This document shows, piece by piece, positions 1 through 21,551 of a DNA stretch of 36,849 bases. Positions within the stretch are counted from its first letter, which is position 1. Every line of letters starts with the position of its first letter. The notes beneath the pieces are model-generated. The model made no database searches. It saw nothing but the letters and a program-made list of their open reading frames with translations, and was not told where the DNA came from. Origin of the DNA: a virus (taxonomy: Duplodnaviria > Heunggongvirae > Uroviricota > Caudoviricetes); IMG/VR virus record IMGVR_UViG_3300028912_000018, one strand, 5' to 3'. Made by a program: the position numbers and the translations under genes.

Positions 1-438
1 ATGCTATGGAAGAACGTCGATTTTGAAAACAGGATTATCACCATCGACGCCAGTGTGATGAAGGGACGCAAAATTCATGTGGTCCCGATGTCAGACCAGG
101 TGGTTGAACTTCTCACTACGCTAAGCTCCATCACCAAACCAGTATCAGAGTTTGTTTTTGCCGGGCGCAACGATAAGAAGAAGCCAATCTGCGAGAACGC
201 GGTTCTACTTGTGATCAAACAAATCGGCTATGAGGGTCTGGAAAGCGGTCACGGATTCAGGCATGAATTCAGCACGATTATGAACGAGCACGAATGGCCT
301 GCTGACGCTATTGAAGTGCAACTGGCACATGCCAACGGCGGATCTGTGCGCGGTATTTACAACCATGCTCAGTATCTCGATAAGCGCAGAGAAATGATGC
401 AGTGGTGGGCGGATTGGCTTGATGAGAAGGTAGAGTGA
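1..438 (+). CDS. int: tyrosine integrase, C-terminal fragment (5' end lies outside window)
   Basis: ORF open to window edge; HGFRHEF (H-x-x-R) and RGIYNHAQY catalytic-Tyr region typical of lambda-type tyrosine recombinases. Confidence 0.8.
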   Translation: MLWKNVDFENRIITIDASVMKGRKIHVVPMSDQVVELLTTLSSITKPVSEFVFAGRNDKKKPICENAVLLVIKQIGYEGLESGHGFRHEFSTIMNEHEWPADAIEVQLAHANGGSVRGIYNHAQYLDKRREMMQWWADWLDEKVE

Positions 439-589: not shown

Positions 590-615
590 GCCCGTCGCTT
601 CCAACGGGCTTTTTT
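590..615 (+). terminator. intrinsic terminator downstream of int
   Basis: GCCCGT-loop-ACGGGC hairpin followed by TTTTTT. Confidence 0.5.
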
Positions 616-677: not shown

Positions 678-1412
678 TTATTGCGTGAGCTTCGCATGAT
701 AGCTGGAGCATCTCTTGTCATCACTAATTAGCTCCGCTTTATCCGTTCTTGCCCATATTATATTTCTTTTTATTATTTTTGCTGGATTACCGGCTGCTGC
801 ACACATAGATGGCACATCTTTAGTTACAATACTCCCATACCCAATGACAGATCCGCTTCCAACAGATACCCCTTTCATTATAGAGACATTTCTCCCTACC
901 CATACGTAACTAGATATAATGATATCTTTTGCCCAATTAATCCTTTTTTTGCTATGAATATCAAATATAGGATGCCCATCTGATGCACGCAAAATAACAT
1001 CTCTTGCTATCATGCAGTCATGGCCAATTGTAACATTGCACTTATCAGTGACGACTTCAAAACCTGCACCTATTGTCGTTCTTCTACCGATAATAACTTT
1101 TGAACCTTTTGTTGCGACAATATCACCTTTAATCTTACTGTTTTTATGTATTCTTACGTAATTATTATCACCCCTAAATATTACGGTAAGCCATCGACAC
1201 TCAACATCATCTTCTATAATAAGTTTGTTATTGTTTCCATTGAACTGAACTTTATTCTCTTTGCTATTTACAAGATCTCCACATACAAAAATATTACCTG
1301 ATCCATTATCATCAACGGAAAACGAGTCTTGAGTCTTGAGTCTTGAGTCTTGAGTCTTGAGTCTTGAGTCTTGAGTCTTGAGTCTTGAGTCTTGAGTCTT
1401 GAGTCTTGACAT
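678..1412 (-). CDS. neuO: phase-variable hexapeptide-repeat O-acetyltransferase, NeuO-like (polysialic acid O-acetyltransferase)
   Basis: 244-aa ORF; N-terminus MSRLKTQD(SRLKTQD)x3 encoded by the heptanucleotide tract; left-handed beta-helix hexapeptide repeats (IGRRTTIGAGFEV, VTIGHDCMIARDVIL, VWVGRNVSIMKGVSVGSGSVIGYGSIV); sits between tailspike and att/int. Confidence 0.75.
   Translation of the reverse strand: MSRLKTQDSRLKTQDSRLKTQDSRLKTQDSFSVDDNGSGNIFVCGDLVNSKENKVQFNGNNNKLIIEDDVECRWLTVIFRGDNNYVRIHKNSKIKGDIVATKGSKVIIGRRTTIGAGFEVVTDKCNVTIGHDCMIARDVILRASDGHPIFDIHSKKRINWAKDIIISSYVWVGRNVSIMKGVSVGSGSVIGYGSIVTKDVPSMCAAAGNPAKIIKRNIIWARTDKAELISDDKRCSSYHAKLTQ
1324..1407. repeat. simple sequence repeat: 12 tandem copies of GAGTCTT (AAGACTC on the coding strand)
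   Basis: counted directly; 84 nt, in frame, starts 3 nt after the neuO-like start codon. Confidence 0.95.
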
Positions 1413-1565: not shown

Positions 1566-4500
1566 TTAGTGCTTCCCTTCTATTAAGTCTAACCTAGCTT
1601 TTATTCTTTCTATTTCTCTGCGCTGCCATGCCGCCTCGATATAGAATAAGAGATCAGGTCTGACCCCCCATCTAGATCCTGCTGGCGTTATTTCAACGCG
1701 CTCAATGATGTCTTCCATTACCATCACTGGATTATCATCCTCATCAACAATGATGCTCCCGTCATTATCAGTCAGCGGCATTTCCCTTTGGCCAGTAATG
1801 ACGTCATCATATACTGCGGGATAATCGTCATAGCAAAGAAAGGCATAGCGGCATGTTGTGCTTTCTTCTTCCATGAGTCCGTGAGAAATAAGAACATCAC
1901 GAAGTTGCTGCGCGATTACACCATGATGTATCCTCGCTCCTTCTTCCCCCTTTATAGCGACAGCGTTCAGCCATTTATAAGCGATATACCTGACGTCACC
2001 CCAGGCATCCAGCAATGCTTCGTCAGGAGAGACCGGCTCTGTCTTTAATGTTCCGTCACTGGTAACCACAGGATTGGAGCCAAGATAAACTGTCGAGAAC
2101 CTGTTTCCCGGACCACCAAGAGCATTTACATTATCAAGATAAGGTTTAACATCTCCGTTCTCAAAAAGATGTTCGAGTGCGTTATATACCGCGCGACGTG
2201 GAGTACTGCTTCCGGAACCATGCAACGTTATCATTGCACCATCTGCTGAAGACGTTGTTTCACCTCCGCTAACGATTAATCTCTGAGCGGTAACATCATC
2301 AGACGGTACTTTCTTCGCAATAATGGCGTAATTACCCTCAAGTTTGACTTCCGCGCGAACTTGTCCTGATGTACCTGCATGGACAGTCAGTGACTGGACG
2401 GCAACATCATCTGTGAAATCAACGGGTACAGGAACCGTCCTCACGCCTGACGTCGACATAAAAGTAGGAAGCGTTCTGTTAGGAGTGGCTCCGTAGACAA
2501 AATCCCTTGAAACAAATTCTTCCTGTTTAATTTTCACCCTGAAACAATACAAATCAGCCGGGTGACCATCGTGAACATAAGGATATTTTCTGTTGTTATC
2601 CCCTATGCTCCATGGGTTTAGAAAGTCTTCCCCACCGAAAATGTAGTACAGCCAGTTGTCTTTGATACAAACTGAACCAACACCAACCGCAGAGTTAACT
2701 ATTCCGCCCTGATAAATCTGATCAGTAACATTAACCCACTCTACATTATCCAGACTCCACTCATTGACGTTAACTCTGGTCATAAATGTTCTTGGATAAT
2801 TTCCTGCATAACGGTTATCAGGTTCTCCTCCTTCCCACTCACCAAATGCGCGCTCACTGCCAAAAATAATCAGCTCATCGCCAACTTTGGCAAAAGGAAG
2901 GTTTGAGTGATGAACATTATTTGGGAAGCGAAGAGAATTCCATGATGTACCTAAATCAGAGCTTCTGTGCAATGAACTACCGGGTTGAGTACTTAATGTC
3001 CCCCTGGTCGTCAGATACAGAATGCCATCATAATATTTTACACATGGCTCAGATGCATTCGCCTCATATTCTGCAGGTATGCGTCTGCGAACAAAGCTAC
3101 CAGGAGAACCGAAAGCATCAGAGAAATAGAGTATCCCAAGCTCGCGTGGACCAATATCACCATTATGGTAGCCAACAGCAAAACTGTTATCGCTAATCGT
3201 CGCAAAACTGTGAATCTCAGTAACAGGAGTGCTTCCGTCAACAAAAGAAGGAATAGTTCCAAGACTGGTTTTTCTCCATGGTGACGAGTGAAATGATGTA
3301 CCAAAACTCCAGTATCTACCCTCGTTATTCTGATCCACATCCTGGGTATTTTGCGTCGTAACTGTAAAAGTATTTTTATCAATAACAGTAGTCACCGTCA
3401 TATTCCCGGTAACACCTGTAACACCAGAGTTTGAGAAGTTGACAAAATCACCAGCAAATAATCCGTGATCAGTAATGCGAATATAAGCGACTTGCTGATT
3501 TGCTGCTTTCGTTATACCACCATAAACGCGAAGGCTGCGACTCATTGGGCGATCCCACAACTCTGCAACCTGCAGTTTATTTCCTCTCACGGTCCGCGTC
3601 TCAATTACAGCAAAAAGGCGATTTCTGACAACCCCCATACTCATGCAGTGATAGTTAACTGTGGGATAGTTTTCATGTAAATCTGTAAGCCATTCCGGCG
3701 TTGTCCAGGTCTTCCCGTCATCTCCTGAGCGAACCCATGCAACATGGAGGTTATTTACACCATGGCGGTCTCCAGCCATAAAAGGCGCATAGATGACATT
3801 GTCATATACAAACGTTTTATCCTGCGTCCAGGCGTTGTACCACGGTGTATCTGTAATTTTAAATAACTCTCCCTGGATAAAATCTTCAGAAGCATAAAAA
3901 AGAGGCTGGCCCGGTATTCTCTCAAATAAAAAACGAGCATTTTTAAATCGACTGACATCCGGAAGAGTTGATACTTTAAAAGTAAGCCCTAATCCGTCAA
4001 TTTTATAACCTGGAGATGAGGCTTCAAGGCACGCGCTTATTGCAGTGGAATCGTCATTTATACCATCACCAACAGCTCCAAAATCTTTGGGGCTAATAGC
4101 ATCACGCATTTTATCCTGGAACGTTCGGTACACAGCCCCAGAACCATACTGAATAAACCAACCAAAACCACCAACAACCCCGGCGATTGCAGCATCGACA
4201 TAATTACGCATTGAGCGATTATTTACAGCGTCCTGCTCAAATGATGGATCTGCAAGGTTAGAAATTTTGTTTTGCTTTGCATCGTAATATTTTGCAAGCA
4301 AAGATGGTTTCATCAATGCACGTCTGAACCACCCAAAACATTGCTGGATCAGCATCGTCAGGTAGTCAAAGGCATCTTCATGCACTTCGGGGAAAAATTT
4401 TCCCTGATTGCGAAGGTCTGTGTCCTGCACTACATCAAGCACACGATCTATCGTAATTCGCCATCCAGTAGCAAGCGGAGACGGAAGAACCACAGAACCG

Positions 4501-4688
4501 CCACTATAAGTGCCCGCCCCAGTTACCGTATAACCGGTATCCAGGACCAATTCTGTTACGTTCCCGTTCAGGTCAGACACCTGAACAACCAGGTCTGATT
4601 TTCTGAAAATTCGAAAAGTATACGGAAACGATGTCGTAACGCCGTTACCGGTGTATTCGTTGTGGTCAACTTCGGTTGAGACCGTCAT
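1566..4688 (-). CDS. tailspike, endosialidase-type with C-terminal intramolecular chaperone (peptidase S74-like) domain
   Basis: 1040 aa; two sialidase Asp-box motifs (SGDDGKTW, SSDLGTSW); C-terminal segment with SDGTLK serine-lysine motif and conserved chaperone-domain tail; GGAG SD 7 nt before ATG. Confidence 0.7.
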   Translation of the reverse strand: MTVSTEVDHNEYTGNGVTTSFPYTFRIFRKSDLVVQVSDLNGNVTELVLDTGYTVTGAGTYSGGSVVLPSPLATGWRITIDRVLDVVQDTDLRNQGKFFPEVHEDAFDYLTMLIQQCFGWFRRALMKPSLLAKYYDAKQNKISNLADPSFEQDAVNNRSMRNYVDAAIAGVVGGFGWFIQYGSGAVYRTFQDKMRDAISPKDFGAVGDGINDDSTAISACLEASSPGYKIDGLGLTFKVSTLPDVSRFKNARFLFERIPGQPLFYASEDFIQGELFKITDTPWYNAWTQDKTFVYDNVIYAPFMAGDRHGVNNLHVAWVRSGDDGKTWTTPEWLTDLHENYPTVNYHCMSMGVVRNRLFAVIETRTVRGNKLQVAELWDRPMSRSLRVYGGITKAANQQVAYIRITDHGLFAGDFVNFSNSGVTGVTGNMTVTTVIDKNTFTVTTQNTQDVDQNNEGRYWSFGTSFHSSPWRKTSLGTIPSFVDGSTPVTEIHSFATISDNSFAVGYHNGDIGPRELGILYFSDAFGSPGSFVRRRIPAEYEANASEPCVKYYDGILYLTTRGTLSTQPGSSLHRSSDLGTSWNSLRFPNNVHHSNLPFAKVGDELIIFGSERAFGEWEGGEPDNRYAGNYPRTFMTRVNVNEWSLDNVEWVNVTDQIYQGGIVNSAVGVGSVCIKDNWLYYIFGGEDFLNPWSIGDNNRKYPYVHDGHPADLYCFRVKIKQEEFVSRDFVYGATPNRTLPTFMSTSGVRTVPVPVDFTDDVAVQSLTVHAGTSGQVRAEVKLEGNYAIIAKKVPSDDVTAQRLIVSGGETTSSADGAMITLHGSGSSTPRRAVYNALEHLFENGDVKPYLDNVNALGGPGNRFSTVYLGSNPVVTSDGTLKTEPVSPDEALLDAWGDVRYIAYKWLNAVAIKGEEGARIHHGVIAQQLRDVLISHGLMEEESTTCRYAFLCYDDYPAVYDDVITGQREMPLTDNDGSIIVDEDDNPVMVMEDIIERVEITPAGSRWGVRPDLLFYIEAAWQRREIERIKARLDLIEGKH

Positions 4689-4791
4689 GTTAAATCTCCA
4701 GATAGTCGCAGCACCCGTTGCGCCGCATATCTGGTTATTCTATTACCTGAAAAACCATATATGGATAAAAAGACTATAAATACCAATAGAT

Positions 4792-4808
4792 ATTACCTTT
4801 CGGGTAAT
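4792..4808. promoter_or_regulatory. operator-like 17-bp palindrome ATTACC-TTTCG-GGTAAT
   Basis: perfect inverted repeat; member of a dispersed motif family. Confidence 0.55.
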
Positions 4809-4844
4809 TTGCAAAACGTGCTGGATAGCAAACAAATTATTTGT

Positions 4845-4864
4845 TACTGTATAAACATACAGTT
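4845..4864. promoter_or_regulatory. LexA (SOS) box TACTGTATAAACATACAGTT
   Basis: CTGT-N8-ACAG with AT-rich spacer; 20 nt upstream of the 4884 start codon. Confidence 0.7.
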
Positions 4865-4883
4865 ATTGCATGGAGAAGATAAG

Positions 4884-5141
4884 ATGCAGCAGTATCACTA
4901 TCCACTGGAAGACGGATTTACCGAAAGGATTCACACGCCGGGAGGCGTCAGGTCACTGGTGGAGGGATCGCACTTGATGAAATTACTCCGGGATCTCGAT
5001 AAGGATGGATTTAATGTCGATGGCCCACTTGCCGAACTGACTGCACTGATTAACTACGTCACCAGCTCACAGATGTCTATGCAGGATCTGCAAACACATC
5101 TCGACTATTGTGCCGAACAATTACGAAAACAAACCAGATAA
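4884..5141 (+). CDS. small antirepressor-like protein (stand-alone paralog of the Ant C-terminal domain)
   Basis: 85 aa; GGAG SD 8 nt upstream; roughly 40-45% identity by eye to the C-terminal 75 aa of the 5459-6115 product. Confidence 0.6.
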   Translation: MQQYHYPLEDGFTERIHTPGGVRSLVEGSHLMKLLRDLDKDGFNVDGPLAELTALINYVTSSQMSMQDLQTHLDYCAEQLRKQTR

Positions 5142-5144
5142 GGT

Positions 5145-5188
5145 TTGCAATTACCAAATGGAGTGCTTATATTTACCTTTGCGGTAAA
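5145..5188 (+). promoter_or_regulatory. sigma70-like promoter overlapping operator TTTACC-TTTGC-GGTAAA
   Basis: -35 TTGCAA (5145-5150), 17-nt spacer, -10 TATATT (5168-5173); operator 5172-5188. Confidence 0.5.
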
Positions 5189-5300
5189 TTTACATCGCAC
5201 TCCTCTTGTGCCATAGTAATCGGGCACTGGCAAAATCCAGTGCCGGGATTGGTCTCCCGGATTACTAAGTGGCGCATACCACGCCAGACGTGGTTTTTTT
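5189..5300 (+). ncRNA. candidate small structured RNA or attenuated leader upstream of ant
   Basis: no credible ORF; 8-bp stem hairpin (5223-5244), second hairpin with loop TTGGTC, intrinsic terminator CCACG-loop-CGTGG plus T7 at 5279-5300. Confidence 0.3.
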
Positions 5301-5458
5301 ATGCGTATAGCACAGTCATGCCAGAATTATGGTGGGCTGAATGGGGGTCCGAAAGGACGCCGGTACCACTTAGGCCGGTAAGACCAACTCCGTTCAGTTC
5401 ACCACCATCTGATTGGTCTCAGCGGTGGTGATGTAATTCGCTAAGTGGAGACGCCATC

Positions 5459-6115
5459 ATGAACGCTCAACTCATCCCCGTATTCAACGGCACTATATCT
5501 AACGAAACAGCCCTACTTTGTAATGCCCGCGATCTGCACGCTTTTTTAGGTGTTAAAAAGGTGTTTGCAGCATGGATTACAAATCGCATATCAGAATACG
5601 AATTCATTGAAAATCAAGACTATATTTTGCTTTCCAATTTGGGAAAGCAAACATCTGGTAGAGGCGGCCACAACCGCAAAGAGTACCACCTCACCCTTGA
5701 TACAGCCAAAGAGCTGGCGATGGTCGAGCGTAACGAAAAAGGTCGCCAGGTGCGACGCTACTTCATTGAATGCGAGAAACGTTTAAGACAACAAGAAACA
5801 AAAGTGGAGAAGGTCTTGTCAGGCTTCATGCCCGCCATTATGGAGGCGATCAAGCTGGAAGACAAAAAAGAATACAGCGCCCCACTGAAGCCCGGCTACC
5901 GTAGCCTGATTCATTCGCCGTCTGGTGTTCTCGGCCTGACGGAGAACTCACTGCTGATGAATCTGCTGAACAAGTTACAGGAAGACGGGCACGATGTATC
6001 GGGCGCGGCAGCGGAGCTGACCACCATGTTCTGCTACATCGTCGGTGTGAGCAAATGCCTGCGTGATATCCAGACGCACGCGGAGTACATCAACGACAAG
6101 GCAGGGTTCTTCTGA
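5459..6115 (+). CDS. ant: antirepressor (AntA-type N-terminal domain plus C-terminal domain)
   Basis: 218 aa; N-terminal [35 protein letters not shown] resembles the AntA antirepressor domain; GGAG SD. Confidence 0.7.
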
Positions 6116-6157
6116 CGGCGGCGGCACAGGGACGTGCCTTTAAATAATTCTGTACAG

Positions 6158-6202
6158 ATTGCAGACTGTGGGTGAATAGCGTACTATTACCTTAAAGGTA
6201 AA
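6158..6202 (+). promoter_or_regulatory. promoter with overlapping operator ATTACC-TTAAA-GGTAAA
   Basis: -35 TTGCAG, 17-nt spacer, -10 TACTAT; operator 6186-6202 abuts the AGGAGG SD. Confidence 0.45.
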
Positions 6203-6213
6203 GGAGGCGCGAT

Positions 6214-6381
6214 ATGACAGCGTTGAAAAATCGTACTCAGCACAATGAACAAGCCAAGCAATGCTGGGATGTCATTGGAAAAGTTATGCTTGGCCGCGCA
6301 AGCAAAGAGCGCGACAAGGATATGGTTTACCAGACAGGAACATCTTTCAGCGACTTCAAGGCGGCATTTCGCTCCAAATAG
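6214..6381 (+). CDS. small hypothetical protein (55 aa)
   Basis: ATG with AGGAGG SD; below the ORF-track size cutoff; translated by hand. Confidence 0.4.
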   Translation: MTALKNRTQHNEQAKQCWDVIGKVMLGRASKERDKDMVYQTGTSFSDFKAAFRSK

Positions 6382-6401
6382 AAGCACATCAGGAGTTTTC
6401 C

Positions 6402-6842
6402 TTGAAGTTTAACATTAGAATATCTAATAGTTTTCTACATGGGGAAAGCAACACCCCTTTCGCTGTAGACGGACCTTTCCTTACTGATGATGAAATAAAA
6501 ATCATACAAAGTTTTTTAGAGGATGTTGCCAATGGAAGGGCGCTTGTTGGAAAAAACAAGCCCTCGTGGGTTGATGATAACCATGATAAAATTCCCGGCT
6601 CAGACAATTATGAGCAAGAGAATTATTGGCATTATCATTGTGGGCCAACATGGTATCCAAACACATTTAAGAATTATACCATTAACTTAAATTTCAACCC
6701 TGGCGGAAGGCATTCTAATGAATGCATTCATTATGCAAAAAATGATAATGAAATTGTCATTGTTGGATTTTCAAGAGAACACATACCTTTCCTTTCATCA
6801 GATGGAAACAACAATCCGCTTTTTAATGATGAAGAAGAATAG
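6402..6842 (+). CDS. hypothetical protein, AT-rich moron gene (TTG start assumed)
   Basis: no in-frame ATG after the upstream stop; TTG 6 nt after AGGAG; AT-rich codons; terminator follows. Confidence 0.45.
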   Translation: MKFNIRISNSFLHGESNTPFAVDGPFLTDDEIKIIQSFLEDVANGRALVGKNKPSWVDDNHDKIPGSDNYEQENYWHYHCGPTWYPNTFKNYTINLNFNPGGRHSNECIHYAKNDNEIVIVGFSREHIPFLSSDGNNNPLFNDEEE

Positions 6843-6862
6843 CCCGCGCTGCGGGCTTTTTT
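6842..6862 (+). terminator. intrinsic terminator
   Basis: GCCCGC-GCT-GCGGGC then TTTTTT. Confidence 0.7.
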
Positions 6863-6934
6863 GTGGACGAAACAAAAGTCAGTGCTACACTCATTGACGC
6901 CACATTGAGGTGGCTTATAGATGGAAATTTCACA

Positions 6935-7096
6935 ATGAAAAAAGCATTTGCTGCACTGTTCGTTTTGTTGTCTCTGGTAGCGTCAACTCAGGCCTTTGCC
7001 GGTCGTTGTCAGCACGACAGCGACACTGCTGCTGACGGCTCACGCTGCGGTGGGCGTTCTGCGGATTCCCGCCCGGGCGGCGGTGGCATTCGTTAA
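6935..7096 (+). CDS. small secreted peptide (53 aa precursor)
   Basis: signal peptide MKKAFAALFVLLSLVASTQAFA with AXA site; about 31-aa Gly/Ser/Arg-rich mature part with 2 Cys. Confidence 0.4.
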   Translation: MKKAFAALFVLLSLVASTQAFAGRCQHDSDTAADGSRCGGRSADSRPGGGGIR

Positions 7097-7119
7097 AAAC
7101 AAGGCCGCGAAAGCGGCCT
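7095..7119 (-). terminator. intrinsic terminator ending the minus-strand virion operon
   Basis: AGGCCGC-TTTC-GCGGCCT hairpin followed on the minus strand by TGTTTTT. Confidence 0.6.
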
Positions 7120-7131
7120 GTGACATGTCAC
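7120..7131. repeat. 12-bp perfect palindrome GTGACATGTCAC (copy 1 of 3)
   Basis: exact match to copies at 24829 and 27280. Confidence 0.9.
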
Positions 7132-7132
7132 G

Positions 7133-7693
7133 CTACATTGATATATGATTCATAAAGTAGCTTAAAGATTTACTTCCCAGAAAAGAAATTTCTTTTCCTG
7201 GATATGTCGCAATAATTGAGCATGACTTATCCCCGTTAGAGGTAACAAATCCTGAATAACCTACTTGTTCTTTACCATTTTGTTGCTTGGCTAAAAAGTA
7301 GAGGTAGCTTATCTTTTTGCCCTCTGGGTAAAACTCTGCCAAACCAGTATCGGTGATTGAATATTTTATTCTCCCGCCTTGAGTAACGTTTTCCATCTCA
7401 AGTTTAGCTATGTCTTTTCTGTTGTATTCAGCATTGATTTTCCTTTCGAAATCAATGTTGTTTTCAAATGAGTAGGAAGCAACAGTCTGAATAGATGGGA
7501 ACACGTTTATCTGGATGCCCCCACAGTCGGCACAGGTATAAAGGTATGAATCAGATGGAATCCCCATAAAAGAAAACTGAGTTACCTTAAATTTATCGCT
7601 ATCTCCAAAGTATTGAAGTTCGCATTTAACATTTTGCCCTGCAAAAGAAAATGCAGACATCAATATTGAAACAAAAAATATAATTGCCTTCAT
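7133..7693 (-). CDS. secreted/periplasmic hypothetical protein, last gene of the virion operon
   Basis: 186 aa; signal peptide MKAIIFFVSILMSAFSFA; start 2 nt after upstream stop; AT-rich. Confidence 0.55.
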   Translation of the reverse strand: MKAIIFFVSILMSAFSFAGQNVKCELQYFGDSDKFKVTQFSFMGIPSDSYLYTCADCGGIQINVFPSIQTVASYSFENNIDFERKINAEYNRKDIAKLEMENVTQGGRIKYSITDTGLAEFYPEGKKISYLYFLAKQQNGKEQVGYSGFVTSNGDKSCSIIATYPGKEISFLGSKSLSYFMNHISM

Positions 7694-7695
7694 TA

Positions 7696-10245
7696 TTATT
7701 TACCTAGCATGAACTGCGATGGTGGGATCAGAAAGTCGTTCCCCTGCTCACGCTCAACACGGCGCTGATAACGCTCAAGAGAGCCTGGGTCAAGGGCATC
7801 TTGTATCCGGTTCAATATTAAACCATTCATCGCCGTACGAAGCCAGAACACGTTGAGGAATGGCGTATTGTCAAGTGCCGTGCGATACCAGTCACCCAAA
7901 TCAGCATCCCCTCTCGTGGTCTGCTGGAGCAGCGTGATAATGCTGTCAGCGTTCGATGCTGCTGGCCCCATTAGCGACGTAACCGGCCCGGCCCCCATGC
8001 GGTTGACCTCACCAAACATGAAGTCACCCAAGATGCCAAGACCGCCCCCCTGAGATGCGGCTGCGAGAAACGTCTTGGCATCTGCCGGGCGTGGTGTTTG
8101 CCCTTTCAGCATGAGTTTTGACTGCATGGAGATATAACCAAACATAGTCGCCCAGACAAAGAGGTTTGCAGCACCAAGGAAAGCCCCCTTCCCGTTACGT
8201 AGCAGCGCATTCGTCAGCGATCCGGTTTTCGACTCACCAAGCCCAGCAGGAATATAACCACGCCCGAATACTTCGCGTCCTAGTACGTTCTGCATGAAGC
8301 TTGCAGTGAACGATTTGTACTGACCAGCGAATCGTATTGCTTCCCCAGCCACCGTTCCTGGCACCGTGCCCATCTTCATAAACGCCTGCGTGCGATCGCC
8401 AGGCTCTGACATGGCGATATTCAGACGGTCAAGGATGTAGCCGCGCAACTGCCCTTCCAATTGATCGCGTGCGTCAGCGATAGCGCGCTGCGTTGGTTTG
8501 ATCCCCTTACTCTCTACATAACCGGCAATCACTTCGTCAGGCACGCCGCGGATGCCGCTGGTCGTCATGAACTTACGACCTTCGCTATCGGCCATGTCCA
8601 TGTTGCGAAAAATTTCCCACTCACGTTCGCCAATACCGTGCAGATCCAGCACGCGTCGCAGGTCTTCCGGTAGCCGCGCATGAGACTGGTCAGCATTCTT
8701 TGCAAGCCAGTTGGTTATCATCATGGCGTTGCTGTTGCGACCGCTCTCGGTCCAGAAGTTCATGAGGTTGTACTTAAAGAAAAGCTGCTGCGCGCGACCA
8801 AGCTTTCCATTCAGCGTGTCATCACCAGATATGCGCCGGATGATTTCCTGCGTCATGGAGTCGGAATAAACTCCGATAGAGGAAAGGATCTCTTTCTGCT
8901 CCGCGCTGTTGTAACGCGTGAAGCGGCCTCTCATAGCACCAAGCAACGCCTGCATAAAATTCTGCCCTTGGTAGCGCATCTCGGTAGCGGCGATAGGCAC
9001 GTCGTTAAACGATGAGATTACCGCGCCACCAAGTTGGCTCATACGCAACCAGCCGCGTACAGCCGCCGACGCATTGGCCCAGCCTACGCTGCCAGGAATA
9101 TTTAGCGAGCCGTCAACCTGCGGCATTACGGTACGGTTAATGCGACGCACCTTCGTCATGTAGTCAGCCAACGCTGCCGGTCTTCCGGATTTGCTGATAT
9201 CTTCAGCAATGGCGTCCGTCAGGTACTTAAACATGTTCTGTGGGTTAGTGCCCAGTACGCGCATCATGCCCGTTGTGCGGGCAGCGCTGTTTAAGCCACC
9301 AAACAGCGCTTCTCGCAGGCTGCCGGTGCCGAATTGCTGGTTGTACTCGTGCCACGAGATACCATCTTTGAAGTGCAAAATTCGCTCTTGGCTGGCGCGT
9401 TTAGCTGCGTTCGCCGATCCCTTAAAGCCATTCATCCAATCGGGCTTTTCAGATGTAAGATGCACGCCGGAAGCCAGCCCGTTATAAATGTTACGCATGA
9501 ACTGCTCGCGGTCAGCCACGCCGTCAAAAGTGCGCTCATCAAGGCGCGGGAGAATAGCATTTCGCCATGCTTCATAACCTGCGGCGCGGATCTTCATGAT
9601 GTCGTGTGACTGGCGCACTATATAGCCCGGCTCTTTGCGTATCCATGCCCCGGCGCGGTTCTCATCAATGCGCGCAGTTTCCTGCCATTTCATGATGATT
9701 TGTGCAGCGCTTACGGATTGCTTTGTCATACCGTCAGTTGACTGCCCGCGCCCTATGCGCCACATTGCATCGGCAATTTCCCGGTCATTGCTGCCGCTGG
9801 CGATGAATTGCACCAGCCCGGCACGGTCAAAATCGTAGTTGATACCGGAATGATACTTGCCGCGCAGTTGCGCCACCTCCGAAGATACCGACCGGCGGGC
9901 GCCGGTACGCGCATCGTTGCGGCCAACCAGCATTGCTTCAAGCCCGATATCCGGGCGGTCTTTCCAGATAGTACGAAGCTCTCTAAGTCGTTGTGCGGCA
10001 ATACGGGCGTCGATTGCCTTATTGCGAGCCTCAATCTGTTTTGCCAGCATATCGGCATTGCTCAGTTCTTCCGCTGCGCGCATCGCGGCCTCTTCCAGAG
10101 ACAGCGCCTCATTGGTCGCCAGAATTCGCCTAGTGGTGTCGTTCATGTCACGCACCAGCGACTCCATCTCATCGGAAGAAAGCTCGCGACCAGCGGCAGC
10201 ATTTACACTGCGCTCGCACTGCGTCAAAAATTCGTTTGCTGCCAT
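7696..10245 (-). CDS. large internal virion (core/ejection) protein
   Basis: 849 aa; ATGA start-stop overlap with upstream gene; position in operon. Confidence 0.65.
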   Translation of the reverse strand: MAANEFLTQCERSVNAAAGRELSSDEMESLVRDMNDTTRRILATNEALSLEEAAMRAAEELSNADMLAKQIEARNKAIDARIAAQRLRELRTIWKDRPDIGLEAMLVGRNDARTGARRSVSSEVAQLRGKYHSGINYDFDRAGLVQFIASGSNDREIADAMWRIGRGQSTDGMTKQSVSAAQIIMKWQETARIDENRAGAWIRKEPGYIVRQSHDIMKIRAAGYEAWRNAILPRLDERTFDGVADREQFMRNIYNGLASGVHLTSEKPDWMNGFKGSANAAKRASQERILHFKDGISWHEYNQQFGTGSLREALFGGLNSAARTTGMMRVLGTNPQNMFKYLTDAIAEDISKSGRPAALADYMTKVRRINRTVMPQVDGSLNIPGSVGWANASAAVRGWLRMSQLGGAVISSFNDVPIAATEMRYQGQNFMQALLGAMRGRFTRYNSAEQKEILSSIGVYSDSMTQEIIRRISGDDTLNGKLGRAQQLFFKYNLMNFWTESGRNSNAMMITNWLAKNADQSHARLPEDLRRVLDLHGIGEREWEIFRNMDMADSEGRKFMTTSGIRGVPDEVIAGYVESKGIKPTQRAIADARDQLEGQLRGYILDRLNIAMSEPGDRTQAFMKMGTVPGTVAGEAIRFAGQYKSFTASFMQNVLGREVFGRGYIPAGLGESKTGSLTNALLRNGKGAFLGAANLFVWATMFGYISMQSKLMLKGQTPRPADAKTFLAAASQGGGLGILGDFMFGEVNRMGAGPVTSLMGPAASNADSIITLLQQTTRGDADLGDWYRTALDNTPFLNVFWLRTAMNGLILNRIQDALDPGSLERYQRRVEREQGNDFLIPPSQFMLGK

Positions 10246-11942
10246 CACATCCCCCGGTTAATCATACAGGCGGCAAATGCCCGGAAAGCGTTGCTCATGC
10301 TATTGTCGCTGGCGTCGGCACGAATATCATTGAGTTTCTGGCGCAACGTGGTCGCAAGATCAGGGTTATCGACAGCGATATCGTCAAGCAGGGCGTTACT
10401 CAGGTTGAGCTCGTTATCAAGGTCTGCAGCGGCAGCGGTAATTTCATGATCTGCCTTTTGCGTTTCTTGATAAACCCGATCGGCTGTTTCGCTTGCTGGG
10501 CGAGCCGTTTCATCAACCTGCCGTGCCGGGTTCTGTATGCGATGGATGGCGCGTTCACGCAGTGCTGGTTTGTGCAGTTCATAGAAGGGCTCAACATCTG
10601 GGCTACGTCCTTCCATCATGTGTGCCAGCGCAGCGCGATACGCCTGCTGGTTCACGTTCCAGTCAGCATCCCTGATGGCGCTTGCGGCAGTGCGAACTGC
10701 GCCAGCGACCGGCGACATCTGCATGCCGTCCAGGATCTGCTGCGCACGCTCGGAAATGGTGACTTTCAGGTCGTCGGGGATCTCGCCGCGGGAAATCTGA
10801 GACTGGCGCCAGCGCGCCTGCTCTGCTGTCGCGTTCTGCTCCAGCGATGTGTTGATCTCCTGATTGCGTGCAGCGATGGCGTCTTTCTCGGCCTGAATCT
10901 CTTTCAGTGCCCTAGAGCGCGCATCCTTAAACTTCATCCGCTGCCCCTGATACTTTTTGGTGCGCTGCTGCAGCGTCGCATCAAGCGAGTCAGCATGACG
11001 TTGATTAGCCGCAAGCTCGGCACGCAGGTCGGCAACGTTACCGATCTGCCCGCTCTGTAACTCCTGCTGGCGCGCCATATAGTCAGGAACCACGTCGTCA
11101 TAAGCTCGGCTGTATGCGTAGCTCTCCGCTTCACTGGAAATGGCCGCCGCCAGATCTGCGTTAGCGCCAACCTCAGGGATATTCACGCCCGCCGGAATGT
11201 TGTCAGGCGTTATCACTGGGGTTGGCTGCGCATCGCCAGAAAACGCCGGGGACTCTCCCGTTGCAGCATCGGGAACGCGACGCGGTCGCACGATATCGGC
11301 GATAAGGCCGCCGCCGGCATGCATTAGACCGCCAGCCATCGTGTTAAAAAAAGTACTTTCCAACGCGTTGCTATAGGTGAAGTCGTCACCTTCCGCCGCC
11401 GCTGCCAGCCCGGTAAGCGGCACGGTCACCAACGCCTGCGCTGCCCCCATGCGTGCACCAGCAACAAATCGCTCGCCAAATCGGCCAAGCACAGAAGCCG
11501 CCTTTGCTTCTCCAGCGAACGGAACCAGCGCCAGCGCCACGTTACCAGGATCTGCCATTGAACCAGCTAGGCTGGCTGCGAAATTAAGCGGCGTGGCTAC
11601 CCACCCGCTCGGTGCCGACATCGCGATCTGCTGGCGTGCCAGAGAATCTTTGCGTTCGGCAATAACATGATCGAGAAAAGCCTGCGTAACGCCAGAATCT
11701 GGCACGTTTATGCTCTTTACGCCGTACTGCTTCAGGAGCTCATCCGCTTCCTGCTTACTGATAACTGTAGAGTTTGGGTCATTCGCCAGCGAGTCGGCCT
11801 GCGCAAAGCGGTAGCCGGACATGACCGGCCCCTCTTCAAATCCCTGCTTAAGGGAAGAAAGCAGCGATTCGCCAAGCCCTGCTGGCGCGTTGCCAATTGG
11901 CTGGTTAATTCCCTGTCCCGGATCATCTGTGTAAATTGGCAT
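10245..11942 (-). CDS. internal virion (core/ejection) protein
   Basis: 565 aa; coiled-coil-rich; tightly coupled to neighbours. Confidence 0.6.
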   Translation of the reverse strand: MPIYTDDPGQGINQPIGNAPAGLGESLLSSLKQGFEEGPVMSGYRFAQADSLANDPNSTVISKQEADELLKQYGVKSINVPDSGVTQAFLDHVIAERKDSLARQQIAMSAPSGWVATPLNFAASLAGSMADPGNVALALVPFAGEAKAASVLGRFGERFVAGARMGAAQALVTVPLTGLAAAAEGDDFTYSNALESTFFNTMAGGLMHAGGGLIADIVRPRRVPDAATGESPAFSGDAQPTPVITPDNIPAGVNIPEVGANADLAAAISSEAESYAYSRAYDDVVPDYMARQQELQSGQIGNVADLRAELAANQRHADSLDATLQQRTKKYQGQRMKFKDARSRALKEIQAEKDAIAARNQEINTSLEQNATAEQARWRQSQISRGEIPDDLKVTISERAQQILDGMQMSPVAGAVRTAASAIRDADWNVNQQAYRAALAHMMEGRSPDVEPFYELHKPALRERAIHRIQNPARQVDETARPASETADRVYQETQKADHEITAAAADLDNELNLSNALLDDIAVDNPDLATTLRQKLNDIRADASDNSMSNAFRAFAACMINRGM

Positions 11943-11943
11943 G

Positions 11944-14565
11944 TTATCGTCCTGATTGCTGGCCGTTCTGGAAAATGTTAATCAGGTTGTCGCGCTGACT
12001 TTCTGCGCTGTATTCCTTAGACTGTCCGGGAGTATATTTCACCGGAGTATCAATGAACTTGGTAATGCTGTTCCATACTGATCGGTTGGTTGTTCCCAGT
12101 TTCGCCAGATCGTTGAACGGCACCGTAATCGGGTTGCCGTCGGCACCGTTGACGATCAGCCCGTTGAGCATCAGGGTAAGTCCTGTTTCGTCGCTGTTGG
12201 TAACCCACTGCGCATTATCACGAATGCGGGAGATACTCTGCTCACGGTTGACCTCATCAGGTAGCCTTGGGTCACCAATAAGCGGCATAATCTGATCTGC
12301 TGACAGGTTTTTCAGATACGCATTGGCACCATCGTTAACGTCACGAATATCTATCCCTGCACGCTTAGGTAGCCGCCAAGTGCCATTGGTCTGGTACTGC
12401 TCGCCGAGGATGTCCTGATACGCCTGTTTTGCTGCATCAGACGCCGACATTCCGCGCTGCATGTTGATGTAAGTAAGTCGTTTTCCCTGCTCGTTGAAGT
12501 TATTCCACACGGCAGTGCCACCAGGCTGAACAACCATCGTGCCAGCAAAATCTTTCGATTGGTCATTCCATGACGAGTCGGCGCTATCCGCGTCGGTTTT
12601 CTCAAGACTGCCGCGTAAGTCAGCAGTTTTAACGCTACGGTTTTGCCAGAGCGCATTTGCCGCGCGCGGGTTCTCGGTAGCCATGACAACCTGCAACGCA
12701 GGATAAGCGCTCTTCTGAACCTGCTGCATCACCTGATCCGAGTATTTGCCGAACGACTGCGCCACCGACTGAATGGCCTTTACGCTAGATTCCTGCGTGT
12801 TGTCAATACGCTGCAGTACGTCGTTGACCATGGACTCCGGTAAAACTTTTTTGCTCATTATCCCCAGGCGGTCTTTTTCAGACTGTATGCGGGAAACTAG
12901 GTATTCACCAGATGAAGGGTCATTCAGGTACTGCTGGAATGCAGCCTGCACAACCGGAGAGTTTTGTTGCAGCCATGCCCCCGGATCCGCTTCCCGCGCC
13001 TTCAGTACCTGCCCAAGCTTGACCTTTGCCGATGCATAAAGCTCTGCTTTGTATTTAAAGTCAGGGTCGTTTTCCTGCGGTGCCATTGCCTGCACGGCGG
13101 CGGTACCCTGCTGGACGTTGCCCTGCATAATGGTCTGATAAACAGGTTGTAGCGTCATTGCCTGCTGGTATTGCTGGAAGGTTTTTTCCATCTGCAGGCG
13201 CTCGGCAGGCGCTGCCTGAAGCGGCATAACGGCGGCCCATTCGTGCGCTGAAATAGGCGTCACCTGCTTACCGGCCTCAATTTTGGATAGGTCGTCCTGC
13301 ATTCGACTCTGTAGCGCAACGCGACCGGCTGAAGCCTGCATGTCGTACATGCCAGCAACCTTGCTCATCATCTGCGACTTTTTGTCCGGACTCATGGCGT
13401 TCCAGAATGGCTGTGCGATGAGGTTTTCCATCGTCGCAGATCCAGGAATAGCTCCAGCACTGCCAGTTACTTTTGCCACATAATTGCGCGTCTCGTCGTA
13501 TGGGATAGCTGCGGCAAACTGGGCGTTACTGACTTCGCCTGTGCGCGGATCGCCAATCTGTTTAATCCAGCCGTCAACCTTTCCTGGGCCAGCGTTATAG
13601 GCAGCTACTGCCAGAACCGGGTTATTGTCGTATTTCTTCATCTGCGCGCCGAAATAAGCTTGCCCCAAGCGGGCATTATAGCGCGGGTCATTCAACCATT
13701 TATCTCGGTCCCACGGCACGCCAGCAAGGCGGGCAGCTTCGGGGCCAGTATCTTCCGTCACCTGCGCTACGCCAACAGCGCCTTTTGGCGACACCAGAGG
13801 TGTTCCGTCCTTTCCGTACTGATTTCCGCCACTCTCCTGCCAGATTATTGCAGAGAATAACTGCGCCTCACTCGGTGTATCGGTTACCTCAATCTTGCCG
13901 TTCGGACCCATCATCTGTTGATACATCGGCACATACCACGCCTCCGCCGCACCGTTCGCGGCATTCTCGCGCCACGAAACCCAGTTCTGTTCGATCTCTT
14001 CCTGACTCTGGCCGTGGGCTTCGCCGTAAGCGATGATGCTATGATATGCCTTCAATCCTGCCTGGTTTGCCATTGTCGGGTTACGGAACTGCATCGATAG
14101 GTTTTTTAGTGTCGCATCCTGCATATCCGCCTCATACTGGCGAACCTGTCCTATTTCGTACCTCCCGGCCTGCGTAGTGAACTGAATGCGCTGCTGCTGC
14201 GCCTGCTGCATGAAAGCATTACGAGCCTGTTCATCCGGCAGCGACATAGCCAGTTGTTCGACCTGAGCATCAAACTGCTGCGTATACTCATGGCCTTTTC
14301 CAATAGCATTTTTCCCTTTCAGGTTAAGCAATCCTGTTTCAGGATTATTCAGCAGATCGCTGCTTATCTGACTGAGGTTAAGAGATGCCTCCTGAGCCAG
14401 AGCGATATTGGCACGCTGTTTTGCCTGCCCCAAAACATCAATTGCCTCTGTCCCTGCCCGAACAAAAGCATCACCAATACCTGGCTGAGAAAACGTCTGC
14501 AAGCCTGCTGACTGAACTCCACGACTCTCAACCTGACGTCCGGATACTGTTGGTACGACTGGCAT
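11944..14565 (-). CDS. internal virion protein with lytic transglycosylase (SLT) domain
   Basis: SLT motifs IIWQESGGNQ and AYNAGPGKV; start moved to ATG 14565 (GGAGG SD, TAATG overlap with upstream stop). Confidence 0.75.
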   Translation of the reverse strand: MPVVPTVSGRQVESRGVQSAGLQTFSQPGIGDAFVRAGTEAIDVLGQAKQRANIALAQEASLNLSQISSDLLNNPETGLLNLKGKNAIGKGHEYTQQFDAQVEQLAMSLPDEQARNAFMQQAQQQRIQFTTQAGRYEIGQVRQYEADMQDATLKNLSMQFRNPTMANQAGLKAYHSIIAYGEAHGQSQEEIEQNWVSWRENAANGAAEAWYVPMYQQMMGPNGKIEVTDTPSEAQLFSAIIWQESGGNQYGKDGTPLVSPKGAVGVAQVTEDTGPEAARLAGVPWDRDKWLNDPRYNARLGQAYFGAQMKKYDNNPVLAVAAYNAGPGKVDGWIKQIGDPRTGEVSNAQFAAAIPYDETRNYVAKVTGSAGAIPGSATMENLIAQPFWNAMSPDKKSQMMSKVAGMYDMQASAGRVALQSRMQDDLSKIEAGKQVTPISAHEWAAVMPLQAAPAERLQMEKTFQQYQQAMTLQPVYQTIMQGNVQQGTAAVQAMAPQENDPDFKYKAELYASAKVKLGQVLKAREADPGAWLQQNSPVVQAAFQQYLNDPSSGEYLVSRIQSEKDRLGIMSKKVLPESMVNDVLQRIDNTQESSVKAIQSVAQSFGKYSDQVMQQVQKSAYPALQVVMATENPRAANALWQNRSVKTADLRGSLEKTDADSADSSWNDQSKDFAGTMVVQPGGTAVWNNFNEQGKRLTYINMQRGMSASDAAKQAYQDILGEQYQTNGTWRLPKRAGIDIRDVNDGANAYLKNLSADQIMPLIGDPRLPDEVNREQSISRIRDNAQWVTNSDETGLTLMLNGLIVNGADGNPITVPFNDLAKLGTTNRSVWNSITKFIDTPVKYTPGQSKEYSAESQRDNLINIFQNGQQSGR

Positions 14566-18979: not shown

Positions 18980-19023
18980 TCCTGCAATAAAGGGGCCGAA
19001 GCCCCTTGTCTGATTCGCGAGGC

Positions 19024-19362: not shown

Positions 19363-19363
19363 C

Positions 19364-19801: not shown

Positions 19802-19852
19802 CTTCTTTCTCCATTAGTGGGTCTGTTACGACCCACAGGTTAATAACAGGCG

Positions 19853-21549: not shown

Positions 21550-21551
21550 GA

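What the first reader, a model, noticed from the sequence alone, without database searches (positions are those of the whole stretch)
1566..4688. Endosialidase-type tailspike next to the enzyme that modifies its own substrate
The 1040-aa tailspike has two sialidase Asp-box motifs (SGDDGKTW, SSDLGTSW) and a C-terminal intramolecular-chaperone segment with an SDGTLK serine-lysine motif, as in K1-specific endosialidases that self-cleave after folding. The adjacent neuO-like gene would O-acetylate the same polysialic acid capsule, so receptor-degrading and receptor-modifying functions sit in one cassette beside att/int.
Basis: partly seen in the sequence, partly recalled or inferred. Interest (0 to 1): 0.55.

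Follow-up and report, generated by a model that had tools for sequence, protein, structure and literature searches.

The report
Known K1 endosialidase tailspike plus neuO
This is the well-studied pairing from E. coli K1 prophages of a tailspike that digests the polysialic acid capsule and the phase-variable NeuO enzyme that acetylates that capsule; the only unusual point is that here it sits on an epsilon15-like phage backbone, a junction I found nowhere else and which may be an assembly artefact.

Summary
ORF 1566-4688(-) is an intact 1040-aa endosialidase tailspike. It has the full Pfam endosialidase domain set plus Peptidase_S74 and is 66% identical to the solved K1F enzyme. All five catalytic residues, both Asp-boxes and the Ser877/Lys882 autocleavage dyad are present. 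The neighbouring gene (678-1412, -) is neuO, about 99% identical to crystallised NeuO. It carries 12 AAGACTC repeats, so it is in frame (phase ON). A 145-aa integrase 3' fragment lies at 1-438. No att site is in the window.

None of this is new. The order int-neuO-endosialidase is the published layout of prophage CUS-3, and window 1-3990 is 99.6-99.8% identical to it. NeuO-mediated protection against K1 phages has been shown experimentally.

The twist is the backbone. The tailspike N-terminus and everything from 3991 to 36849 belong to an epsilon15/phiV10-like Uetakevirus prophage of the ZX5 type, not to P22-like CUS-3. In such prophages the tailspike is followed by a lysis cassette, which is missing here. 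The two prophage types share a near-identical 2.3-kb endosialidase core. I found neuO beside a Uetake-type tailspike in none of 5,426 complete E. coli genomes, 50,697 phage records, IMG/VR or metagenome contigs. It is therefore either a rare recombinant or an assembly chimera.

The parts
1..438 (+). 3' fragment (last 145 codons) of a CUS-3/IntS-type tyrosine integrase gene; the window starts at an internal ATG (codon 241 of 385)
   Evidence: Pfam Phage_integrase E 2e-29, profile positions 44-170 only. 99.7% identical to CUS-3 int. The same 145-aa product is called as a separate gene where int is split by IS110/IS3 insertions or frameshifts; L061 and L065 are 100% identical to window 1-1409.
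590..609 (+). Terminator-like GC hairpin followed by a T-run, between the convergent int and neuO genes
   Evidence: Consensus scan only.
678..1412 (-). neuO: polysialic acid O-acetyltransferase, 244 aa, in frame (phase ON)
   Evidence: PDB 3JQY NeuO E 4.2e-161 over 1-244, differing at 2 residues in the printed alignment. Hexapep Pfam hit. Catalytic H147 and W171 are present (PMC3046976).
1324..1407 (-). poly-psi VNTR: 12 exact copies of AAGACTC starting 2 nt after the ATG, encoding four RLKTQDS heptads
   Evidence: TRF period 7, 12.3 copies, 100% matches. Exact count of 12. A multiple of three means ON (PMC3046976, PMC13001214).
1429..1457 (-). Sigma-70 promoter-like site (ATGACA-17-TAAAAT, with TG) just upstream of neuO in the 153-nt gap after the tailspike stop
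   Evidence: Consensus scan, 10 of 12 matches; inferred, not shown.
1566..4688 (-). Endosialidase tailspike gene, 1040 aa (115.7 kDa precursor)
1569..2057 (-). C-terminal intramolecular chaperone domain, aa 878-1040 (18.6 kDa), predicted to be released after cleavage at S877|D878
   Evidence: Peptidase_S74 877-937. PDB 3GW6 (endoNF chaperone construct) E 8.8e-95 over 757-1038. Masses.
2043..2060 (-). S877-D-G-T-L-K882: Ser-Lys autocleavage dyad
   Evidence: Follows T876, which aligns with endoNF T910, so S877 = S911 and K882 = K916; R863 = R897 (PMC8326128).
2061..2525 (-). Stalk domain, aa 722-876 (End_tail_spike)
   Evidence: Pfam E 8.4e-78.
2526..3875 (-). Catalytic beta-propeller, aa 272-721, with the beta-barrel insert at aa 383-465 (3294-3542) and Asp-boxes at 3705-3728 and 2940-2963
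   Evidence: Pfam; catalytic residues conserved; motif positions.
3876..4076 (-). End_N_terminal domain, aa 205-271; similarity to CUS-3 ends inside it at window 3990 (about aa 233)
   Evidence: Pfam; breakpoints.
4077..4688 (-). Epsilon15/phiV10-type (Uetakevirus) N-terminal particle-binding domain, aa 1-204. It is not the P22-type head-binding domain of CUS-3.
   Evidence: tblastn gives 70.9% identity to the epsilon15 tail fibre and 67.5% to phiV10, and 99.5% to Phi05_1999 B, a record that matches this tailspike gene like ZX5. PDB Dpo31/Dpo36 N-termini E 2.9e-35. The CUS-3 N-terminus MTDITANV... is unrelated.
1612..3908 (.). 2.3-kb core that is near-identical between CUS-3-type and Uetake-type endosialidase genes. 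The switch from CUS-3-type flank (at or below 1611) to Uetake-type flank (at or above 3909) lies somewhere inside it.
   Evidence: Site-by-site comparison with CUS-3 RS218, ZX5 and the two co-resident copies of APEC O18.
4689..36849 (.). Uetakevirus-type prophage backbone: antirepressor/moron region, virion and tail proteins, capsid, portal, tRNA-Arg, terminase, replication, repressor, RecE/RecT, MT-A70 methylase and DUF1382. It has no holin, endolysin or Rz, and no Uetake integrase or att.

Best explanation
The region is the K1-capsule module of a temperate E. coli K1 phage. Its parts are a virion tailspike that degrades alpha-2,8-polysialic acid, and next to it a lysogenic-conversion gene, neuO, that O-acetylates the same polymer.

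The tailspike is predicted to work as follows (inferred from the homologues). It is made as a 116-kDa precursor. The C-terminal chaperone domain nucleates trimer folding and then removes itself by Ser877/Lys882-catalysed cleavage, leaving a 97-kDa subunit. That subunit is anchored to an epsilon15-like tail by its N-terminal 200 residues. The six-bladed propeller cuts the capsule so the virion can reach the outer membrane.

neuO has its own promoter-like site and a 12-copy heptanucleotide tract that switches translation on and off by slippage. It is ON here. In a lysogen it acetylates O7/O9 of the capsule sialic acids. Published experiments show that this lowers killing by other K1 phages.

At the sequence level, the int fragment, neuO and the tailspike from about aa 233 to the end are CUS-3 sequence. 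The tailspike N-terminus and the remaining 32 kb are a ZX5-like Uetakevirus. The two are joined inside a 2.3-kb endosialidase core that both prophage types share.
For: Domains. Solved homologues and conserved catalytic and cleavage residues: with PMC12632334 and PMC8326128. NeuO identity, H147/W171 and 12 in-frame repeats: with PMC3046976. CUS-3 identity of 1-3990 and its annotation (attL, int, neuO poly-psi, siaK1). Uetakevirus identity of 1598-36849. Epsilon15-type N-terminus. Phage protection by NeuO: PMC9659370 and PMC13001214. neuO known to lie between the endosialidase gene and int: PMC8653822.
Against: No enzyme activity, cleavage or acetylation can be tested here. The neuO promoter is only a consensus match. 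The physical linkage of neuO to this particular Uetake-type tailspike is unsupported by any other sequence. The window holds no lysis cassette and only a fragment of int, so as it stands the element could not complete a lytic cycle or excise.
Confidence: 0.9

Rival explanations
1. The adjacency seen in this window is an assembly chimera. On this view the source strain carries a normal CUS-3 at argW (int-neuO-P22-type endosialidase) and a separate ZX5-like prophage at guaA (lysis cassette-Uetake-type endosialidase). The assembler crossed from one to the other inside their 2.3-kb near-identical core.
For: The two copies are practically identical over 1612-3908. Of 5,426 complete genomes, 72 carry the Uetake-type gene, and most of the 40 listed have a second endosialidase place. 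In APEC O18 the two copies are direct repeats about 167 kb apart. The hybrid is absent from every collection searched. The window lacks the lysis cassette that always follows this tailspike. The nearest relatives of window 1-1409 (100% identical, L061/L065) have the ordinary 982-aa P22-type tailspike and an IS110-family element in int, a typical contig-break site, just before the point where the window begins.
Against: Assemblers usually break at such repeats rather than thread through them. Nothing in the sequence itself marks a misjoin. Homologous recombination between the same repeats would give the same sequence.
Confidence: 0.5
2. The hybrid is real: a Uetakevirus-type K1 prophage physically linked to the CUS-3 int fragment and neuO. 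One route is homologous (Campbell-like) insertion of a circular ZX5-like genome into the tailspike gene of a resident CUS-3. Another is transfer of the 'int-neuO segment into a guaA prophage by a crossover in the shared core plus an IS-mediated or illegitimate join.
For: There is a continuous open tailspike ORF with no scars. A long shared homology is available for recombination and the two prophages often co-reside. IS elements sit at the exact int position where the window starts in close relatives. Other CUS-3 variants and a second neuO insertion site show that the module is mobile (L075; PMC9659370).
Against: It was never seen elsewhere (same calls as above). A simple deletion between the two direct repeats would remove about 167 kb of chromosome. 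From my own knowledge of the K-12 map, that interval includes essential genes such as gltX, ligA, zipA and dapA, so only more complex routes are viable. The window shows no lysis genes and no complete integrase.
Confidence: 0.45
3. The element is an ordinary member of prophage CUS-3 (P22-like, Lederbergvirus), as the gene order int-neuO-endosialidase would suggest.
For: Window 1-3990 is 99.6-99.8% identical to CUS-3 and to CUS-3 lysogens.
Against: Similarity to CUS-3 stops at 3990. The tailspike N-terminus is epsilon15-type, not the P22 head-binding domain (and the PF09008 hits). The other 32 kb match Uetakeviruses.
Confidence: 0.02

Closest known systems
Prophage CUS-3 of E. coli K1 RS218 (CP000711; int - neuO - siaK1 endosialidase at argW)
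   Same: Same gene order and orientation, and 99.6% DNA identity over window 1-3990. The neuO gene carries the same AAGACTC poly-psi tract. The endosialidase catalytic part, stalk, chaperone domain and last codons are the same.
   Different: The CUS-3 tailspike is 981 aa with a P22-type head-binding N-terminus, and the rest of CUS-3 is P22-like. Here the N-terminal 232 aa or so and the whole backbone are Uetakevirus-type. CUS-3 RS218 has 19 repeats (OFF); here there are 12 (ON). Only a 145-aa int fragment is present, and no attL.
Temperate Uetakevirus vB_EcoP_ZX5 (MW722083) and the equivalent guaA prophages of K1 strains (e.g. APEC O18, APEC O1, IHE3034, CE10)
   Same: The tailspike is 98.9% identical over 1039 aa, with 99.5% DNA identity over 1598-5200. 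The structural, replication and recombination modules are collinear at 97-99%. The ZX5 paper already describes the tail-adaptor/endosialidase/chaperone architecture (PMC9782041).
   Different: In ZX5 and in the guaA prophage of APEC O18, the two contexts I inspected, the tailspike is followed by two holin-like genes, an endolysin, a DUF2514 gene, the att core and a phiV10-type integrase. In all listed complete-genome matches the similarity likewise stops at 1598. Here the last 14 residues of the tailspike switch to the CUS-3 version and are followed by neuO and a CUS-3 int fragment.
Endosialidase endoNF of lytic phage K1F (PDB 1V0E/3GVL; chaperone domain 3GW6)
   Same: Same domain order, 65.7% identity over the catalytic and stalk part, the same catalytic residues, two Asp-boxes and the same Ser-Lys cleavage site.
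   Different: The N-terminal adaptor differs (T7-like in K1F). There is a 7-residue insertion at aa 482-488. K1F is lytic and carries no neuO.
Receptor-converting modules next to tailspike and int in related temperate podoviruses (P22 gtrABC; epsilon15 O-antigen conversion genes)
   Same: The logic is the same: a prophage-expressed enzyme alters the polysaccharide that the phage's own tailspike recognises, and it is placed at the int/tailspike end of the prophage (from established knowledge of these phages; not tested here).
   Different: The substrate is a capsule rather than O-antigen. The modification is O-acetylation by a soluble left-handed beta-helix (hexapeptide-repeat) enzyme, and expression is switched by a coding-region VNTR.

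Membership tests
Phage endosialidase (endo-N-acetylneuraminidase, endoNF type) | Domain set End_N_terminal / beta-propeller with inserted beta-barrel / stalk | tested here: met
   All four Pfam models match full length, with E-values from 5.9e-32 to 6.5e-233. PDB 1V0E/3GVL match with E = 0 over aa 205-876.
Phage endosialidase (endo-N-acetylneuraminidase, endoNF type) | Catalytic and substrate-binding residues H350, R549, E581, R596, R647 (endoNF numbering) | tested here: met
   They correspond to H309, R515, E547, R562 and R613, all identical (residue list from PMC12632334).
Phage endosialidase (endo-N-acetylneuraminidase, endoNF type) | Two Asp-box motifs in the propeller | tested here: met
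   SGDDGKTW at 321-328 and SSDLGTSW at 576-583, aligned with the endoNF boxes.
Phage endosialidase (endo-N-acetylneuraminidase, endoNF type) | Endo-cleavage of alpha-2,8-polysialic acid | not testable with these tools
   Needs an enzyme assay.
Peptidase S74 / C-terminal intramolecular chaperone domain | Domain homology directly after the stalk | tested here: met
   PF13884 at 877-937, E 1.7e-10. 3GW6 E 8.8e-95 over 757-1038.
Peptidase S74 / C-terminal intramolecular chaperone domain | Ser-Lys dyad (endoNF S911/K916) and the stalk arginine R897 | tested here: met
   S877, K882 and R863 in register with endoNF (PMC8326128).
Peptidase S74 / C-terminal intramolecular chaperone domain | Autoproteolytic release of the domain after trimer folding | not testable with these tools
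   Predicted products are 97.1 + 18.6 kDa; needs expression.
NeuO polysialate O-acetyltransferase | Left-handed beta-helix hexapeptide acyltransferase, near-identical to characterised NeuO, with H147 and W171 | tested here: met
   3JQY E 4.2e-161 over the full length; Hexapep hit; H147 and W171 present (PMC3046976).
NeuO polysialate O-acetyltransferase | 5' AAGACTC VNTR starting 2 nt after the ATG; ON when the copy number is a multiple of 3 | tested here: met
   12 exact copies in an open 244-aa frame.
Prophage CUS-3 (P22-like, Lederbergvirus) | int - neuO - endosialidase order | tested here: met
   int is only a fragment here.
Prophage CUS-3 (P22-like, Lederbergvirus) | Tailspike with the P22-type head-binding N-terminal domain, and a P22-like genome | tested here: not met
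   The N-terminus is epsilon15-type. The backbone matches Uetakeviruses. CUS-3-type neighbours carry PF09008.
Prophage CUS-3 (P22-like, Lederbergvirus) | Insertion at argW with the attL core | not testable with these tools
   The window starts inside int; the attL core is absent from the window.
Uetakevirus (epsilon15/phiV10/ZX5-like temperate podovirus) | Collinear structural, replication and recombination modules and an epsilon15-type tailspike N-terminus | tested here: met
Uetakevirus (epsilon15/phiV10/ZX5-like temperate podovirus) | Lysis cassette downstream of the tailspike, phiV10-type integrase and att core ATTGAGTGGGAATGATT | tested here: not met
   No homologue of the holins, endolysin or Rz in the window. 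The only integrase match is the CUS-3 fragment. The att core is absent. These features may lie outside the window.

The most novel reading that the evidence does not exclude
The junction is real. On that reading an epsilon15-like (Uetakevirus) K1 prophage has become linked to the CUS-3 neuO contingency gene by recombination inside the endosialidase core that the two phage lineages share. It would be the first case of neuO outside a P22-like CUS-3 context, and a direct snapshot of how capsule-degrading and capsule-modifying modules move together between unrelated temperate podoviruses.
Probability: 0.45. Interest if true: 0.35.

Novelty: already known. Interest (0 to 1): 0.2.

Why it matters
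The pairing is a textbook case of a prophage that carries both the enzyme that destroys its receptor and an enzyme that modifies that receptor. The second enzyme gives partial exclusion of competing K1 phages and alters immune recognition of a major neonatal-meningitis and urosepsis pathogen. That biology is already established for CUS-3, so this window adds no new principle.

If the Uetakevirus-neuO linkage were verified, it would document module exchange between two co-resident K1 prophage lineages through a shared 2.3-kb tailspike core. It would also warn that neuO typing cannot simply be equated with presence of CUS-3. If the linkage is an artefact, it is a useful example of a prophage-prophage misjoin.

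Tried and rejected
1. I searched for the same junction (neuO beside a Uetake-type tailspike) in several collections.
- INPHARED phages: none.
- 5,426 complete E. coli genomes: 0 places cover at least 80% of window 1-5200.
- Exact 1040-aa protein look-up: not on record.
- IMG/VR by NeuO protein and by an exact 51-mer: every locus long enough to show the boundary ends its similarity at 3990, which is the CUS-3 type. Three stored loci were too short to show the boundary, but they differ from the window at diagnostic sites.
- GTDB species representatives: no match to the 51-mer.
- Metagenome contigs by NeuO: all CUS-3-type.
- Contexts of the exact NeuO(+12) protein: all ten have a P22-type tailspike.

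2. I tried to place the crossover with diagnostic SNPs. The two gene types have no consistent differences between 1612 and 3908, and the co-resident copies in APEC O18 differ at one site there. The crossover therefore cannot be narrowed, and this cannot separate recombination from misassembly.

3. I considered a simple deletion between the two prophages. I rejected it because the copies are direct repeats about 167 kb apart in APEC O18. The positions listed give about 170 kb and the same strand for APEC E16002 and SF-468 as well. From my own knowledge, that interval holds essential genes.

4. I considered that the window is plain CUS-3. This is rejected.

5. King 2007 (PMC1951898) and Deszo 2005 (PMC555961) are not held in the library. 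They are cited only through the reference lists of papers that are held.

6. I ran no structure prediction. With 66% identity to crystal structures it was not needed.
Full report
**Observation.** The three quoted motifs are present.
- SGDDGKTW is at aa 321-328 (window 3705-3728).
- SSDLGTSW is at aa 576-583 (window 2940-2963).
- SDGTLK is at aa 877-882 (window 2043-2060).

The first two are the only Asp-box-like strings in the protein. They align with the two boxes of the K1F endosialidase in the HMMER alignment, so they reflect homology, not chance.

**The tailspike.** Pfam gives a complete endosialidase architecture:
- End_N_terminal, aa 205-271
- catalytic beta-propeller, aa 272-721 (E 6.5e-233)
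- inserted beta-barrel, aa 383-465
- stalk (End_tail_spike), aa 722-876
- Peptidase_S74 chaperone, aa 877-937

Against solved structures the protein matches endoNF (1V0E, 3GVL and others) with E = 0 over aa 205-876. It matches the endoNF chaperone construct 3GW6 with E 8.8e-95 over aa 757-1038. Identity to endoNF over the catalytic and stalk part is 437 of 665 residues, or 65.7%.

The residues listed as catalytic or substrate-binding in K1F are H350, R549, E581, R596 and R647 (PMC12632334). All are kept, as H309, R515, E547, R562 and R613. Thr876 aligns with endoNF Thr910. It follows that Ser877 and Lys882 are the counterparts of the S911/K916 autocleavage dyad, and Arg863 is the counterpart of R897 (PMC8326128). 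Predicted processing is 115.7 kDa to 97.1 + 18.6 kDa. Activity and cleavage are inferred from homology; they are not shown here.

**neuO.** The gene at 678-1412(-) encodes 244 aa. It matches crystallised NeuO (3JQY) at E 4.2e-161 over the full length, with two differences in the printed alignment. The catalytic His147 and Trp171 are present (PMC3046976). Two nucleotides after the ATG there are exactly 12 copies of AAGACTC at 1324-1407. These encode four RLKTQDS heptads. Twelve is a multiple of three, so by the published rule the gene is phase-ON (PMC3046976, PMC13001214). This is the natural neuO+12 allele that was used for crystallography. A promoter-like site with an extended -10 lies in the 153-nt gap upstream (1457-1429, minus strand). 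A hairpin followed by a T-run lies between neuO and int. Both are consensus matches only.

**Integrase and att.** Only the last 145 codons of a CUS-3/IntS-type tyrosine integrase are present, at 1-438(+). The window begins at an internal ATG. The same 145-aa product is called as a separate gene in 246 blocks of public assemblies. In those, the integrase at argW is split by IS110- or IS3-family insertions or by frameshifts. Two such genomes (loci L061 and L065, with an IS110-family insertion) are 100% identical to window 1-1409. The integrase is therefore probably a dead 3' fragment in the source.

**What the surroundings show.** Window 1-3990 is 99.6-99.8% identical to prophage CUS-3 and to CUS-3 lysogens. 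The CUS-3 record is annotated attL, int, neuO poly-psi domain, siaK1 endosialidase. That similarity stops at 3990, about residue 233 of the tailspike.

From 1598 to the end of the window, the sequence instead matches temperate Uetakeviruses (epsilon15/phiV10-like). The matches include vB_EcoP_ZX5, phiv142-3, HEMP4, phiV10 and the guaA prophage of APEC O18. They carry the expected virion, tail, capsid, portal, terminase, replication, RecE/RecT, MT-A70 and DUF1382 genes.

The first 165 residues of the tailspike are 70.9% identical to the epsilon15 tail fibre and 67.5% to phiV10. The CUS-3 protein begins with an unrelated P22-type head-binding domain. Overall the protein is 98.9% identical to the ZX5 tailspike. 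The differences are concentrated in the last 14 residues, which here are the CUS-3 version. The ZX5 paper already describes this adaptor/endosialidase/chaperone protein and integration at guaA (PMC9782041).

**The shared core and the missing lysis genes.** A site-by-site comparison shows that CUS-3-type and Uetake-type genes are practically indistinguishable between 1612 and 3908. The two copies co-resident in APEC O18 differ there at a single site. The window is CUS-3-type at or below 1611 and Uetake-type at or above 3909.

In ZX5 and in the APEC O18 guaA prophage, the tailspike is followed by two holin-like genes, an endolysin, a DUF2514 gene, the att core and, across the circle, a phiV10-type integrase. 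The listed complete-genome matches all lose similarity at 1598 in the same way. None of these genes has a homologue in the window. Their place is taken by neuO and the int fragment.

**Is the junction real?** Among 5,426 complete E. coli genomes:
- 157 carry the int-neuO-tailspike-3' cassette.
- 72 carry the Uetake-type endosialidase gene, and most of those listed have a second endosialidase place.
- None has a place covering at least 80% of window 1-5200.

The junction is also absent from the phage records. It is absent from IMG/VR, from metagenome contigs and from the ten contexts shown for the exact NeuO(+12) protein. The exact 1040-aa protein is not on record.

In APEC O18 the two endosialidase genes are direct repeats about 167 kb apart. 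A simple deletion between them would remove chromosomal genes that, from my own knowledge of the E. coli map, include essential ones. A real hybrid would therefore need a more complex route. One such route is homologous insertion of a circular ZX5-like genome into the CUS-3 tailspike. Another is a crossover in the core combined with an IS-mediated join.

The alternative is an assembly misjoin across the 2.3-kb repeat. That would be consistent with the window apparently starting right after an IS insertion site, a typical contig break. The sequence alone cannot decide between these, and I rate the two about equally likely.

**Mechanism.** The tailspike is a virion enzyme used at infection to strip the K1 capsule. 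NeuO is a prophage-expressed, stochastically switched enzyme that acetylates the same polymer in the lysogen. Deleting neuO increases plaque size and lysis by a K1 phage, and complementation reverses this (PMC9659370). A locked-ON allele increases survival against a lytic K1 phage and against neutrophils, but lowers serum resistance (PMC13001214). The cassette therefore couples receptor destruction, for entry, with receptor masking, for superinfection exclusion and immune modulation. This parallels the O-antigen conversion modules next to int and tailspike in P22 and epsilon15 (established knowledge; not tested here). The steps shown here are the sequence-level identities. The enzyme activities are taken from the cited work on near-identical proteins.

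**Novelty and verdict.** The literature states explicitly that neuO lies between the endosialidase gene and int of CUS-3 (PMC8653822, with its references to Deszo 2005, Vimr and Steenbergen 2006, and King 2007). The Uetake-type endosialidase is also published (PMC9782041). The only unreported element is the linkage of neuO to a Uetakevirus backbone. That linkage is unverified and may be an artefact. Interest 0.2.

Noticed in passing
window 1-438; loci L059-L068: The window starts at an internal ATG of the integrase and ends exactly at the stop codon of the DUF1382 gene (36655-36849). The same 145-aa int fragment is a separate gene call in 246 blocks of public assemblies, where the argW integrase is split by IS110/IS3 elements or frameshifts. 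L061 and L065 are 100% identical to window 1-1409.
   Followed up: partly
window 1413-4688 versus L002 1868-3665 and L004 5215-7012: The lysis cassette that follows this tailspike in ZX5 and in the APEC O18 guaA prophage (two holin-like genes, GH19 endolysin, DUF2514) has no homologue anywhere in the window, so the element as shown could not lyse its host.
   Followed up: yes
L003 4683-7628 and L004 7319-10438 (E. coli APEC O18): K1 strains commonly carry two endosialidase prophages at once: CUS-3 at argW and a Uetake-type prophage at guaA. In APEC O18 the cores are identical over about 2.3 kb except for one site, which suggests recent transfer or gene conversion between the two tailspike genes.
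   Followed up: partly
L029, L031, L034 (IMG/VR CUS-3-like contigs): Some CUS-3-like contigs lack neuO altogether (window 687-1473 is missing) while keeping int and the endosialidase. neuO therefore behaves as a separable moron.
   Followed up: no
L075 8001-10539: One genome has the exact NeuO(+12) gene and a P22-type endosialidase next to a different 404-aa integrase in the opposite orientation. This may be the second CUS-3-like insertion site (pgl-bioA) mentioned in PMC9659370.
   Followed up: no
window 4761-5141 and 5459-6115: A 126-aa ORF and the 218-aa AntA-family antirepressor downstream of it share a similar C-terminal stretch of about 60 residues (…LMKLLRDLDKDGFNVDG…/…[17 protein letters not shown]…). 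This suggests a duplicated or exchanged antirepressor C-domain in the variable region beside the tailspike.
   Followed up: no
window 6261-7693: The low-GC moron region holds three ORFs without Pfam hits: 193 aa; 77 aa with a signal-peptide-like N-terminus; and 186 aa with a signal-peptide-like N-terminus, which matches PHROG 11983 of unknown function. The region differs from the corresponding region of APEC O18 and ZX5.
   Followed up: no
window 24173-24249: A tRNA-Arg (anticodon TCT) is encoded inside the prophage between the portal and terminase regions, as in the APEC O18 prophage and the O157 typing phages.
   Followed up: no
window 1938, 2265, 3585; L013/L033: The window shares rare alleles (1938T, 2265T, 3585T) with one CUS-3-type IMG/VR contig (IMGVR_UViG_3300014972_000037), which is the closest match over 1-3990 (99.77%). 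It differs from the window only at the two Uetake-type sites 3909 and 3960 within the core.
   Followed up: partly
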